Source: Giardia intestinalis (lineage: Eukaryota). Taken from it: a stretch of 64,000 nt of DNA. The translations under genes and the position numbers were made by a program. The notes beneath the pieces were generated by a model that searched no databases, had not been told where the DNA came from, and saw only the letters and a list, made by a program, of their open reading frames with translations. The stretch is taken from the NCBI GenBank assembly GCA_000002435.2, contig CM018789.1. One strand, 5' to 3'. Positions 47,900 to 51,760 of this stretch are shown piece after piece (position 1 is the stretch's first letter; each line of letters begins with the position of its first letter).

Positions 47900-50800
47900 A
47901 GCAGTGAGAGACAGCCGCTCTCGCTCTTCCTGATCAGTTAGACTGGAGAAGGACGAGATGATAGCATGCCCATCGAAGGCCAGCTGATAGTGCGGTTCCC
48001 CCTGGCTTCAATAGAAACAGGACCAGTGAGGGCCAGGCTCAGATCGCACCTCTCTTGTGGAATGATCGTTCGGGGTGCACTCTTGTACATTGCTGTCAGT
48101 ATGTTTGTCGGCTTCCTTTGCAGAGGTAAGGTGTAGATTTAAATAGCAAACGCGTCCCTTGTACAACCTGCTCTCCCCATCAGGCACGGACTCCGAGATC
48201 TCTGTGCATGCGGGACCAAGAAATCCTAAGTGAGCAGCGATGCTCCTCCTGCTCCAGTAGCCCAGCCGCTAGCAGCTCCTCTCCAGGCTCCTTTGCTCCC
48301 TGGCCACAGCCTTCTGTGCTCTCTTGCAGTCCCTAGAGGAGATACCGGGTCCGTGGAAGTGCGGACCAACAGAGGTAAGCCCATGAGACGCTCTCGCCTG
48401 GTGTGTGCATAGCTCTGATCTTGTGTACTAAATGCTACTAAGGCTCCCCATCGCATAACAAGGTGCCAGGTGGGGTTCGGAAGGCAGCCAGCCCTCCCAG
48501 ATCTGGACAGGAGGGAAGCACTGCCCAAAGCGTGCTGCCTCCTGAGTTGATAGGCCGGGACTCCTGTTACCCCAGATCATCATAGTGCTACCGCTGTTCA
48601 CTATGGAGGCACTCTGACCCACAGTGCCTGAGGTTGTTGGTGCAGGCGGCAAAGGGCTCTTCATAGTGGGCTACCATCAGTGGAAGGAACGGGAGCCTGG
48701 GTGTCTTGTCCTTCTGCCAGTGGTTGGCCGGGCTCATGATCAGCACCCTTTGCTGTGGGTACTGGGGTGGCGGAAGTTCCCACTTGCTGACAAGGAGCCG
48801 GGCGATGCTCGCTTGTCATCGTCAACCCGGACTGGGCTGGTCCTGGGCAGATAGACAGTGAGTACGGGGATCCCGTCCCCCGTCGTAAACCACGCCACAC
48901 GGAGAGGGTGTGGTAGCTCGATGCATTTTCCTACGTTACACGACGCAAAGAAGAACGGCCTTTTGATGCGTAGCTCTGGAAGCCTGCAGAGCCCAACCGA
49001 GGGGACTACATCCTGGTGTTGACTTCTGATACGGTTCGGTAGAGGCCAGCTCGATGCTCGCAAGCTTGTGGGAAGCACCAGGGCCGGCACATGCACCTGG
49101 ACAGCAACGCAGGCACACATCTCGGATGCAACTCCGCTGAGGATCTTGCGAGGGGTCGGCTTGGGTCAGTGGTGGAAGGACTTTGCGCAAGCGCTCCATG
49201 CATCAGGGGCCCCTCGAGACCACAAAAGCTCGGCGGCGCTGGCGCACATGTGGACGCGAGACGGTGGGAAAGAGCTGCGTGGTGACTTATAGATGGAAAG
49301 GCTGGGCGCGCATAACAATACGCCCAGGAGAGCTATGCACAGCGCAGTGGCCCGGCTGGCTCCTCTTGTAATACGGAGCATCGGCTGCGGGCATGTGCTC
49401 TTGAAGAGTGGGGGCATCCAGATGAGTAGTGCAGACGTGAGTGAATTGACGGCGCTCAGAGTATGCATCGGGTGGACAAGTAGGGGACAAGAGCTTATGG
49501 CACCACCTGGTCGACGGATGGCTCAAGATGTGTAAGGTACAGCAATCATTCGACCAAAGGTGATGATTGCCCGACAGATGCCAGAGCAGCTGTGTAGATT
49601 GGGCCCTGGTGGTGGTTTGCCACAGGAGGACGCAGGCAGTATGTTTGGATAATAGATACGCTGACTGCCACCGGTTTGCACAATACACCTCTACAATCGA
49701 TCATCTCACCGTGTGTGAGGAGGAGATGAGGCTCCTCGACTTCAGAAAAAGTGGACCTTCAGTAAACTCTGCTCTGCTGCAAATGCATAAAATCAAAAAC
49801 CAGCCTCCAACTCATCTGCAAGTTCTACGGCCTTTCCACGCTTAGGAGCCGAGGAGGCACTACAGGTGTCCCTGCTGTAATCCGGGCTAATGGCTAGTCT
49901 CTGTAGCCCCAGCCCTACCCCGCCAGCCCGCCGGGCACATCTACACTTTCTGTGCGAACCGACTCTCTAGGAACCGTCATGCACAGATAGTCTTCCGAGT
50001 ACTTAGAAGACACCATCCTCTGCTGAGGCGTGTCATCAAGGGCCAAGCACTAAGGCGAGGATGGCCAGAGACAGACCCCTCGCAGTTCTGTTCAACATTA
50101 GCAGCGAGCATGCAAACGAGTGTGCGGTCTTGACGTGCACTGTGATCCAGGTGCCCGGCAGACTGGGCCCATAGCAGCTGGTGCGCAGGCCCCGTCGCTA
50201 GCCTGTGCACAAGCCGTGGTCCACCTCGAAGGACAGCGGAGGATTCTGCGACCCCTTCTGGGTGTACAGCCGTCACTATGGAGCGCGGCGAACAGGCATC
50301 TGCACAGAGGTCGCGGGCTCGCTTAGAGGCGTGTAGACAGCCGACGCCCCGCCTTGTTGCAATGAGAGCTCTGAGATCAGGCAGCCGCTCCACCCATCGG
50401 CCATCATGTGAATATACATGCACCGTCCGAGAAGACCACTACAGTGCCTAGACGACACTATAAGCGTATGCGCCCCCCGCTATAATAAACAAGTGGCAGA
50501 CAGACCAGCAGCGGAAGCAGCAGGGGTATGCCGAGCCGGTGTAGGGCGCATGGTTAGAACCACAGCTCTCTGGGACAATGACAGTACACTGCTCGAACAC
50601 CCCGTTGCATCCGTCCGTGCTATTCGTAGGCTGCAGCGCCTGGCAGGCCCGCAACTAGCACAGCGCGCCCCCAAGCCGCGCACCCAGCATGCAGGGCCAG
50701 GACGGCTGACCCTGTGCGAAGAGGCGCCCTCCCAGGAAGACGACAGTCGCCATCGCTGCCCAAGTTTTTTAGCATTCAAACGCGGGCCCGATGGTCACGC

Positions 50801-51760
50801 TGGCTTCCCTGGCTTTTGCACTGCCTGTCGAGCCTGGCTTCTGACCGGCCTGGGATGGCTGACGGGAGCGTGCAGGTCGGCGCCCTGGTTGCCGGGCCCA
50901 GCCTTCCATCCGCACTTGATGCTGAGCGATAACCCGAGCGGCGCAGGTGGTCTTCTTCGCTCTACATGCAGTGAGCTGCCTGGACGGATGCACGACCGGC
51001 CGTCTGCCTCTGCTCTGCTTCTGGCCACCAGGAGGCGCTGGCTCGAGTGCGTGCCACGGGGCGCTGCCCGCGATGACAGGGGCAGCGCATCACTTCTCGG
51101 GCCTTCCGGTCCATCAGCAGGTGATCCTCAGAGCGCACTTGGAGCCCGGACAGACACACCAGCACGGACCCAGCCACCTTGCGATGCCGCGATCTACCAC
51201 GGACACTGCAGCCTCCGCAATCATCCACTCTGCCTGTCTTTTGCTTAAGAAAAGAGACACTGTATTTAGCAGCCCCCGTGACTTACCGCAACGGGCCAGT
51301 TTCCCAGCATCTTGCCGGATGCCTCCCTTGCACCGCACTGCCCTATTCTTCCCTGCGACAGAAAGAGCTCTGGGGCCCTGGCCCAGACGGAGCCCATTCC
51401 CATAACCTTGCTGCACTCCCCGTCAGGCCCGTCATCACAGAGCACACGCGCACAGGGTCATCCACGCTGCATCACCCTGGGCCTCGTCACCGAGGTAGCC
51501 CCAGCTGGCAGGCCAGACGCCTATGGGCTCACAAGCCCCGCCTCCTGCATGCTCTAGAGACGGCCGGTGCCCTGTCCCGTCGCCTGGCGCGCCGTCGGGT
51601 TCCATCAAGCGCGGCTGAAGAGGCCCGGGCCATAACACTGCCGAAGCCACTGCATTGTCACCAGCAATCAGGTGCACCTCATTTCTCAGGAAATCTTTCT
51701 CTGCCCTAAAAAACGTCTGCTGCCCGATAATTCTGGTAATTACTACGATTGCTTCTGAGA
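47900..51760. other. ~3.9-kb GC-rich region without any long ORF (non-coding island / degenerate element)
   Basis: There are no ORFs over 300 aa. About 30 short overlapping ORFs occur in all six frames, with Arg/Pro/Ala-rich translations typical of GC-rich non-coding DNA. Composition is clearly more GC-rich than the flanking genes. The flanks are the VSP start (47847) and the next gene (51839). Confidence 0.6.

What the first reader, a model, noticed from the sequence alone, without database searches (positions are those of the whole stretch)
47900..51760. 3.9-kb GC-rich, ORF-free island immediately 5' of the giant VSP in an otherwise gene-dense region
Everywhere else in the window, genes are 10-300 bp apart, often overlapping. 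Here about 3.9 kb has no ORF over 300 aa. It is filled with short overlapping six-frame ORFs giving Arg/Pro/Ala-rich nonsense, and its GC content is visibly higher than the flanking coding DNA. Three candidate explanations are (i) a long non-coding or antisense RNA locus linked to VSP control, (ii) a heavily decayed gene or retroelement remnant, or (iii) foreign or misassembled DNA. I saw no resemblance to Giardia rDNA, no (TAGGG)n telomere repeats, and no VSP-like CXXC periodicity. On the plus strand, successive ORFs at 50418-51709 hop between frames, which is also what a frameshift-ridden pseudogene would look like.
Basis: seen in the sequence. Interest (0 to 1): 0.7.

Follow-up and report, generated by a model that had tools for sequence, protein, structure and literature searches.

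The report
Non-coding GC-rich spacer beside a VSP
A 4-kb stretch of Giardia DNA next to a giant surface-antigen (VSP) gene really contains no gene, but it behaves like neutrally drifting leftover DNA of the gene-poor, GC-rich kind already described around VSP genes, so it is ordinary.

Summary
Window 47848-51838 (3,991 bp) lies between the start codon of a giant tandem-repeat VSP (minus strand) and a 442-aa gene (plus strand). It has no coding signal in any of the six frames, no Pfam or Rfam match, no internal repeats, and 58% GC against about 47-48% in the non-VSP flanks.

It is not a misassembly or foreign DNA. Independent short-read contigs match it at 100%, and assemblage E (P15) has an orthologous, collinear, gene-free, GC-rich island at the same position. 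A B-like lineage and a more distant Giardia lineage lack it.

The A and E islands are 66% identical, against 71.5% at fourfold-degenerate sites of the flanking genes. They differ by indels of 0.3-1 kb and share no conserved block, so the island evolves neutrally.

Polarised substitutions show GC is being lost (52 GC-to-AT against 26 AT-to-GC) towards about 45%, the GC of neighbouring fourfold sites. The island is therefore a decaying relic of GC-richer DNA.

Its only identifiable piece is a VSP 3'-end relic (CRGKV, stop, poly(A) motif) at its left edge, also traceable in P15.

Published work already describes extended non-coding, gene-poor, GC-rich, variable regions around VSP genes. Verdict: real, ordinary, low interest.

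The parts
47848..51838 (.). Non-coding, GC-rich (58%) spacer between the giant VSP and the 442-aa gene. It is unique sequence, evolves neutrally, and is orthologous to L005 4425-10000 of assemblage E.
   Evidence: no coding signal; no Rfam or Pfam match; no repeats; synteny and neutral divergence; GC decay
48035..48151 (+). Relic of a VSP 3' end: a hydrophobic stretch, CRGKV (48119-48133), stop TAG (48134-48136) and a degenerate extended VSP poly(A) motif ATTTAAATAGCAAAC (48137-48151). The start coordinate is approximate. It sits at the left edge of the island and points into it.
   Evidence: sequence compared with the giant VSP's 3' end; 82% over 44 nt to the P15 VSP 3' end, E 1e-7; motif at the equivalent place in P15, L005 4562
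41998..47847 (-). Giant VSP (context): signal peptide, about 23 copies of a 240-bp (80-aa) repeat, transmembrane segment and CRGKA. The likely true start is ATG 47847, not the GTG at 47868.
47843..47849 (-). VSP initiator element TAATGTT spanning the start codon of the giant VSP.
   Evidence: motif as defined in PMC2996952. P15 has CAATGTT at its VSP start.
50418..51248 (+). Longest ORF of the island (276 aa); spurious.
   Evidence: only hit is its own 90% variant; codon-position pattern 22/23/13, ORF broken in L041; negative codon score
51653..51838 (+). Lower-GC segment proximal to the 442-aa gene. It aligns with P15 9813-9999 at 75%, slightly above neutral, and is probably the promoter or 5' region of that gene. 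It is the right edge of the island. The related variant L041 and P15 carry extra DNA to the left of this junction that this window lacks.
51839..53167 (+). 442-aa gene of unknown function (context), used as the synteny anchor.

Best explanation
The island is non-functional, or at most a passive spacer. It is the extended non-coding, gene-poor region that typically accompanies a VSP gene in Giardia intestinalis.

Shown:
- It arose before assemblages A and E split and is absent from the two more distant lineages sampled. It sits at a synteny breakpoint, as part of a block with a cathepsin-B gene and a VSP.
- Since then it has evolved at about the neutral rate, with large insertions and deletions.
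- Its high GC is not maintained. It is being lost by an excess of GC-to-AT substitutions towards the GC of neighbouring silent sites.

Inferred:
- It is a relic of DNA that was roughly 64-70% GC at the A/E split. It was left by the rearrangements (duplication, inversion, truncation) that shuffle VSP genes.
- The truncated VSP 3' end at its left edge is the one recognisable trace.
- The source of the rest is unknown. It does nothing sequence-specific.
For: Non-coding.

No known domain or RNA in either lineage.

Real and ancestral:
- 100% matches in independent assemblies.
- P15 has the order CatB, VSP, a 5.6-kb gene-free stretch at GC 0.60-0.69, then the ortholog.
- Blocks are collinear: 48320-48922, 49204-51384, 51584-51629 and 51653-51838.

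Absent elsewhere:
- L007 has a 0.9-kb, 31.5% GC gap.
- L009 has an ankyrin gene 156 bp upstream.

Neutral:
- 66.5% identity over 2,636 aligned pairs, with no conserved window.
- Fourfold sites of six flanking genes are 71.5% identical.

Out of compositional equilibrium:
- GC4 of the flanks is 0.45 (A) and 0.39 (E), against 0.58-0.63 for the island.
- Among three A-type variants there are 52 GC-to-AT against 26 AT-to-GC changes (p=0.004), implying an equilibrium GC of about 0.45.
- With P15 as outgroup the counts are 35 against 9.

VSP relic orthologous in A and E.

Literature:
- VSP genes typically have 'an extended noncoding region upstream' plus an Inr. Truncated VSP pseudogenes keep only the 3' end. 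Inverted VSP pairs are separated by 2-4 kb of non-coding DNA (PMC2996952).
- VSP regions form islands of higher G+C at synteny breaks (PMC3091692).
- 'Regions around VSPs tend to be gene-poor' and have more allelic variation (PMC7000408).
Against: - Transcription, small RNAs and chromatin could not be examined, so a function that depends on position or composition rather than sequence is not excluded.
- The source of the GC-rich DNA is unidentified. No similarity to VSP/HCMP proteins was found beyond the 3' relic.
- The decay estimate rests on 78 polarised changes in 1.16 kb from three variants of unknown sub-assemblage. The 95% range of the equilibrium GC is roughly 0.33-0.58, which I calculated by hand from the counts.
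- The E island is more GC-rich than the A island, so decay rates may differ, or GC-biased conversion may have acted in the past.
- No whole Giardia genome, Gil element or rDNA sequence was available for a direct nucleotide comparison.
Confidence: 0.75

Rival explanations
1. A long non-coding or antisense RNA locus, or a cis-regulatory region, that controls the adjacent VSP.
For: It lies directly 5' of a VSP with a canonical Inr. It keeps its position in A and E. Upstream intergenic areas of VSPs have been suggested to take part in control of expression (PMC2996952).
Against: - The two lineages have different VSPs behind the 'same' island. Only the last ~108 nt of the VSP genes align.
- Identity is at or below the neutral level, with no conserved block and indels of 0.3-1 kb.
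- No Rfam family matches.
- GC is decaying rather than being held.
- According to PMC3091692, the only motif uniquely associated with VSP genes is the poly(A) signal.
Confidence: 0.06
2. A still-recognisable decayed protein gene or non-LTR retroelement (a GilD-like or pseudo-RT remnant, or a VSP/HCMP pseudogene) riddled with frameshifts.
For: - RT remnants lie between some head-to-head VSP pairs in WB (PMC7000408).
- A VSP 3' relic is present.
- The longest open stretch is a little longer than chance: 2.4% of shuffles reach it.
- The age bound from GC decay, which is my inference, still allows a gene decayed by up to roughly 0.6 substitutions per site. Such a gene could be beyond detection.
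Against: - No RT, endonuclease, VSP or any other Pfam domain in six frames of either island at E<=1.
- 120 VSP/HCMP proteins give no tblastn hit at E<=0.01.
- No period-3 signal and no CXXC excess.
- No codon bias in any frame.
- The 276-aa ORF is an orphan among 1.84 billion representatives.
- No second copy in the 64-kb window or the fetched loci, and no internal repeats.
Confidence: 0.12
3. A relic of an rDNA unit. Giardia rDNA is about 75% GC, has a unit of about 5.6 kb, and is subtelomeric and often near VSPs (these facts are from my own knowledge). It would have been left internally by an old chromosome-end rearrangement.
For: - The back-calculated ancestral GC of about 0.64-0.70 is higher than most Giardia genes (inference).
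- The P15 gene-free stretch is 5.6 kb.
Against: - No SSU, LSU or 5.8S match at E<=1 with permissive filters in either island. A relic only 0.2-0.6 substitutions per site away from functional rRNA should still score.
- No telomere repeats.
- A direct comparison was not possible because Giardia rDNA could not be fetched.
Confidence: 0.04
4. Misassembled, contaminating or recently acquired foreign DNA.
For: - Composition differs from the flanks.
- Many short-read contigs end at 51559-51603.
Against: - L004 and L042 cross 48867-51801, including the right junction, at 100%.
- An orthologous island exists in the independently sequenced P15 genome.
- No similarity to plasmids or phages.
- No protein homologue for the longest ORF.
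- The left junction with the VSP repeat array could not be checked with short reads.
Confidence: 0.02

Closest known systems
Extended non-coding upstream regions and gene-poor regions around vsp genes in G. intestinalis WB (Adam et al. 2010, PMC2996952; Xu et al. 2020, PMC7000408)
   Same: It lies directly 5' of a VSP with an Inr, is kilobase-scale, has no genes, and shows signs of raised sequence variation: about 5% among A-type variants, and contig breaks.
   Different: At 4 kb it is at the long end. The papers do not describe composition, evolutionary rate or origin of such regions. Here these were measured for one locus only.
G+C-rich chromosomal islands with atypical nucleotide signature at VSP/HCMP/RT loci and synteny breaks (Jerlstrom-Hultqvist et al. 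2010, PMC3091692)
   Same: It is GC-rich relative to the core genome, adjacent to a VSP, and at a point where gene order differs between assemblages.
   Different: There the high GC is attributed to the genes themselves (VSP, HCMP, RT). Here the GC-rich part is non-coding. The paper also says VSPs are rarely syntenic, whereas this VSP position and its island are shared by A and E.
2-4 kb non-coding spacers between inverted VSP pairs, some with RT remnants (PMC2996952; PMC7000408)
   Same: Similar length, non-coding, and bounded on one side by a VSP end.
   Different: There is no partner VSP. The other side is an unrelated 442-aa gene. The only second VSP trace is a ~120-nt 3' relic 290 bp from the VSP start. 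No RT remnant was detected.
Truncated vsp pseudogenes that keep only the conserved 3' end (PMC2996952)
   Same: The 48035-48151 relic has the hydrophobic tail, CRGK(V), a stop and a poly(A)-like motif.
   Different: This applies to only about 3% of the island. The relic is more decayed (CRGKV, AGCAAAC) than the three described.
GilD, the 'dead' non-LTR retrotransposon family of Giardia (Arkhipova & Morrison 2001; cited from my own knowledge, paper not held)
   Same: Degenerate, non-telomeric and without intact ORFs.
   Different: No RT or endonuclease similarity and no evidence of multiple copies. A direct nucleotide comparison was not possible.

Membership tests
Gene-poor / extended non-coding region flanking a vsp gene | Directly adjacent to a bona fide VSP gene (CXXC-rich, CRGKA tail, Inr at the start) | tested here: met
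   The VSP at 41998-47847 (-) ends ...FLCRGKA and has TAATGTT at its ATG. The P15 counterpart has Pfam PF03302 and is named 'VSP with INR'.
Gene-poor / extended non-coding region flanking a vsp gene | No protein-coding capacity over a kilobase-scale stretch in an otherwise compact genome | tested here: met
G+C-rich VSP-associated chromosomal island | G+C above the genome or flank average | tested here: met
   GC 0.584 against 0.47-0.48 in the flanks. P15 core is 0.632 against 0.45.
G+C-rich VSP-associated chromosomal island | Association with a break in synteny between assemblages | tested here: met
   A and E share CatB, VSP and the island. L007 and L009 have different, short upstream neighbours.
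Gene-poor region around VSPs (Xu 2020) | Raised allelic or sequence variation | tested here: inconclusive
   Island variants L010 and L041 differ by 4.6-5.0% from the window. Fourfold sites of the flanks differ by 0.8-1.35% in other A-type samples. The samples are not the same, and reads could not be mapped. Contig ends cluster at 51333-51603.
Spacer of an inverted VSP pair | Two VSP genes in head-to-head or tail-to-tail orientation 2-4 kb apart | tested here: not met
   The right neighbour is an unrelated 442-aa gene. No VSP tail or poly(A) motif occurs on the minus strand at the right end.
vsp pseudogene | Conserved 3' end (hydrophobic tail, CRGKA, extended poly(A) signal) and/or CXXC-rich reading frame | tested here: not met
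   Met only for 48035-48151. The other ~3.85 kb has no CXXC excess, no Pfam VSP match and no tblastn hit from 120 VSP/HCMP proteins.
Non-LTR retrotransposon remnant (GilM/GilT/GilD, pseudo-RT) | Recognisable reverse-transcriptase or endonuclease residues | tested here: not met
   Pfam scan of stop-masked six-frame translations of both islands found no family at E<=1.
Non-LTR retrotransposon remnant (GilM/GilT/GilD, pseudo-RT) | Multiple dispersed or tandem copies in the genome | not testable with these tools
   No Giardia genome could be searched by nucleotide. The only indirect evidence is no second copy in the window or fetched loci and no diverged paralogue of the 276-aa ORF among 1.84 billion representatives.
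rDNA relic | Similarity to SSU, 5.8S or LSU rRNA | tested here: not met
   Rfam cmscan at E<=1 gave no match in the window island or the P15 island. Giardia rDNA itself was not obtainable.
Conserved structured non-coding RNA | Match to a described family, or conservation above the neutral level | tested here: not met
   Rfam; identity 66.5% against 71.5% at fourfold sites; best 60-nt window 0.83

The most novel reading that the evidence does not exclude
The island is kept for its position and bulk rather than its sequence. One possibility is a small regional centromere or another chromatin domain at the divergent strand-switch between the VSP and the 442-aa gene. This would be comparable to the GC-rich, degenerate, gene-free strand-switch centromere of Trypanosoma cruzi (from my own knowledge). 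Another is the source of a rapidly evolving long non-coding transcript involved in VSP silencing. Fast, neutral-looking sequence change and indels do not exclude either.
Probability: 0.04. Interest if true: 0.75.

Novelty: already known. Interest (0 to 1): 0.15.

Why it matters
It matters little as a discovery. Gene-poor, GC-rich, variable non-coding DNA around VSP genes is already described for Giardia.

Three modest points are useful:
- This island is an orthologous A/E pair of neutral DNA. It gives a local estimate of the neutral rate and mutation bias: GC-to-AT excess, with an equilibrium GC of about 0.45.
- The high GC of VSP-associated islands is, at least here, a legacy that is being lost rather than something maintained.
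- Annotators should not call the 276-aa or neighbouring ORFs as genes. The 48035-48151 VSP tail could be flagged as a pseudo-VSP fragment.

Tried and rejected
It returned nothing, but it also missed the query's own cluster, which is in the collection. I treat it as a technical false negative and do not use it as evidence.
- Fetching Giardia rDNA from metagenomes with 18S primer sequences recalled from memory. The first pattern gave no hit. The second gave 30 unrelated GC-rich contigs with no rRNA motifs.
- Looking up two WB VSPs (P0029, P0114) to examine other VSP upstream regions. They were not on record, so generality rests on the literature.
- Look-up of the 148-aa island ORF: not on record.
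- The Arkhipova & Morrison 2001 paper on Gil elements is not held.
- A second VSP tail at the right end, which would indicate a tail-to-tail pair, was considered because of a vaguely hydrophobic minus-strand peptide near 51700. It was rejected: no DNA or protein similarity and no poly(A) motif.
- Explaining the GC by local neutral equilibrium was rejected, because GC4 of the flanks is only 0.39-0.45.
- A literature search for Giardia centromere sequences found nothing usable.
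Full report
WHAT IS THERE. The window is Giardia intestinalis. The large minus-strand ORF at 41998-47868 ends with the VSP hallmark ...FLCRGKA and consists of about 23 identical 240-bp repeats. The right-hand neighbour has an 84%-identical ortholog named in G. lamblia P15. 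The VSP most likely starts at the ATG at 47847, which lies inside cTAATGTTgg, the VSP initiator motif (motif from PMC2996952). The next gene starts at 51839 (+).

CHECK OF THE OBSERVATION. The longest ORF is 276 aa. Each of the six frames has 35-46 stops per ~1,366 codons, about what random DNA of this composition gives. A codon-usage log-likelihood trained on the window's 18 long genes is negative in every frame throughout the island. The mean of the best frame is -0.05, against +0.16 in genes. Period-3 power is 0.1-2.2, against 2-9 in genes, and CXXC-type spacing of Cys codons is not enriched. GC is 0.584, against 0.48 and 0.47 in the non-VSP flanks, but the VSP array itself is 0.641. The other ORF-free stretches of the window are 690 bp or shorter, with GC 0.38-0.54. 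There is no telomere repeat.

IS ANYTHING RECOGNISABLE? Rfam gives no match at E<=1. Pfam gives no family at E<=1 in stop-masked translations of all six frames. There are no direct, inverted or tandem repeats of note, no similarity to any other part of the window or to neighbouring proteins, and no similarity to plasmids or phages. The 276-aa ORF has a single hit among 1.84 billion representative proteins, a 90%-identical variant of itself. Its variable sites fall 22/23/13 on codon positions 1/2/3, the reverse of a coding pattern. The ORF is broken in a 95%-identical variant. An open stretch of that length is reached by 2.4% of composition-matched shuffles. The 'frame-hopping ORFs' are therefore a by-product of high GC.

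The one identifiable element is at the left edge on the plus strand. It is a hydrophobic stretch followed by CRGKV, TAG and ATTTAAATAGCAAACGCGTC (48035-48151). This mirrors the giant VSP's own ...CRGKA, TAG ... ACTTAGATAGTAAACGCGTC. It aligns to the 3' end of the P15 VSP at 82% over 44 nt, E 1e-7. A panel of 120 VSP/HCMP proteins finds nothing else in the island at E<=0.01.

NOT A MISASSEMBLY AND NOT FOREIGN. Short-read contigs from independent runs match 49109-51801 (L004) and 48867-51778 (L042) at 100% and cross the right-hand junction.

SYNTENY. In assemblage E (P15, ACVC01000034) the order is ankyrin gene, 198-aa gene, cathepsin B, VSP (579 aa, a different VSP), 5.6 kb without a called gene, then the ortholog of the 442-aa gene. 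That gap has no ORF over 252 aa, GC 0.60-0.69, 44-57 stops per 1,858 codons in each frame, and no Pfam or Rfam match. A more distant Giardia lineage (L007) has ankyrin gene, 195-aa gene, a 0.9-kb gap with 31.5% GC, then the ortholog. It has no cathepsin, VSP or island. A B-like lineage (L009) has an ankyrin-repeat gene ending 156 bp upstream. The locus is thus a synteny breakpoint, and the block of cathepsin, VSP and island is shared only by A and E.

RATE OF EVOLUTION. Sensitive blastn shows the two islands are collinear over most of their length. The blocks are 48320-48922 with L005 4876-5459, 49204-51384 with 6431-8623, 51584-51629 with 8879-8925, and 51653-51838 with 9813-9999. P15 has about 0.7 kb extra in one gap between blocks and about 0.9 kb extra in another. 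Identity over 2,636 aligned pairs is 66.5%, and the best 60-nt window reaches only 0.83, within sampling noise. Fourfold-degenerate sites of six flanking orthologous genes are 71.5% identical, and codon positions 1+2 are 93% identical. The island therefore changes at, or slightly above, the neutral rate and has no conserved element. Only the last 186 bp next to the 442-aa gene (75%) is marginally better conserved, as expected for that gene's promoter or 5' region.

WHY GC-RICH? It is not local mutational equilibrium. GC at fourfold sites of the flanks is 0.45 (A) and 0.39 (E), while the islands are 0.58 and 0.63. Two further A-type variants of the island were recovered. L010 matches 50176-51359 at 95.2%. 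L041 matches 49905-51333 at 94.7%. Using the three-way majority to polarise changes gives 52 GC-to-AT against 26 AT-to-GC (binomial p=0.004). The implied equilibrium GC is 0.45, the same as the flanks' GC4, while the segment is at 0.62. Using P15 as outgroup gives 35 against 9. So the GC is being lost, not maintained.

A rough back-calculation from these numbers, which is my inference, puts the island at about 0.64-0.70 GC at the A/E split. It uses a relaxation rate of about 1.9 per substitution per site and about 0.18-0.22 substitutions per site per lineage. It also implies that, under a constant regime, the island cannot be much older than about 0.4 substitutions per site before that split. 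This fits its absence from the B-like and distant lineages.

MOST LIKELY EXPLANATION. The island is relic DNA at a VSP-associated rearrangement site. An older plus-strand VSP was truncated to its 3' end. That relic, or at least its poly(A) motif, is at the same place in P15 (L005 4562). The present VSP, with its own Inr, now abuts it head-on. The GC-rich DNA downstream of the relic has drifted without constraint ever since. The steps shown are non-coding status, orthology, neutral rate, indels, GC decay and the VSP relic. The inferred steps are that the island came in with the cathepsin/VSP block, that its source was GC-rich variable-family or other DNA, and that it has no function beyond spacing.

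COMPARISON WITH WHAT IS KNOWN. Adam et al. 2010 (PMC2996952) report three relevant things. [quoted passage not shown] Inverted VSP pairs are separated by 2,190-3,847 bp of non-coding DNA. Truncated VSP pseudogenes exist that are recognisable only by the conserved 3' end. Jerlstrom-Hultqvist et al. 2010 (PMC3091692) state that regions with VSPs have higher G+C, atypical nucleotide signatures and frequent synteny breaks. They also state that the extended poly(A) signal is the only motif uniquely tied to VSPs. Xu et al. 2020 (PMC7000408) state that 'regions around VSPs tend to be gene-poor', show more allelic variation, and that some head-to-head pairs enclose RT remnants. The island fits this description feature by feature. 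It is not the spacer of an inverted pair, because there is no partner VSP. It shows no RT remnant. It is therefore an instance of a known kind. The only additions here are the measured neutral rate and the direction of compositional change at this one locus.

RIVALS.
- A regulatory or lncRNA locus is contradicted by the lack of any conservation and by the two lineages having different VSPs, but transcription was not testable.
- A recognisable pseudogene or retroelement finds no support in domain, protein or periodicity tests. A source decayed beyond detection cannot be excluded.
- An rDNA relic is attractive on GC and length but has no Rfam support in either lineage. Direct comparison failed because Giardia rDNA could not be fetched.
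- Misassembly or foreign DNA is refuted.

LIMITS. No Giardia genome could be searched at the nucleotide level, so copy number rests on indirect evidence. The concatenated six-frame protein search is a technical false negative and is not used. The decay estimate comes from 1.16 kb and three variants of unknown sub-assemblage. Generality to other VSP loci rests on the cited papers, because look-ups of other VSP loci failed.

VERDICT. This is a real feature, correctly seen, but ordinary. It is the gene-poor, GC-rich, fast-drifting non-coding DNA that accompanies VSP genes in Giardia, here with a truncated VSP tail at one edge. Interest 0.15. Novelty: already known in kind.

Noticed in passing
window 46628-46777 (inside the giant VSP repeat array 42131-47783): The otherwise 100%-identical 240-bp repeat array is interrupted by about 150 bp of garbled GC-rich sequence with a poly-C run (CCGCCGTCCGCCCCCCCCCCCCGG...). 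The ORF stays open but the peptide there is nonsense. This looks like a long-read consensus or assembly artefact, or a damaged repeat unit.
   Followed up: partly
window 42268-47829 (+): An 1,853-aa antisense ORF runs through the whole VSP repeat array. It is a by-product of the repeat unit lacking stops in that frame, not a gene.
   Followed up: no
window 51333-51653; loci L001, L002, L008, L010, L041: Short-read contigs from many samples end at 51559-51561 (L001, L002, right part of L041) or 51603 (L008). L010 ends at 51359 and the left part of L041 at 51333. Right of 51653, the A-type metagenome scaffold L041 continues with 2.2 kb that this window lacks, and part of it aligns to P15 9201-9432. 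This suggests an indel polymorphism or allelic difference at the right edge of the island. It is consistent with the reported higher allelic variation near VSPs.
   Followed up: partly
window 47848-51838 versus loci L010 and L041: Three A-type versions of the island are each about 5% apart. Fourfold sites of the flanking genes differ by only 0.8-1.35% between this window and two other A-type samples. Either these variants come from deeper A lineages or the island holds unusually deep variation. The samples differ, so this is unresolved.
   Followed up: partly
window 40637-47847 versus L005 1345-4424: A and E share the VSP position, which published work says is rare, but not the gene. Only about 108 nt of the 3' end align. 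A has a 1,949-aa tandem-repeat VSP and E a 579-aa VSP without such repeats. The VSP body has been replaced or remodelled in place.
   Followed up: no
window 18927-18998 (+): A tRNA gene is the only Rfam match at gathering threshold in the whole window.
   Followed up: no
window 41549-41997: The 449-bp stretch 3' of the VSP, between it and the cathepsin-B gene, is also ORF-free and relatively GC-rich (0.54) compared with other short intergenic stretches of the window (0.38-0.47).
   Followed up: no
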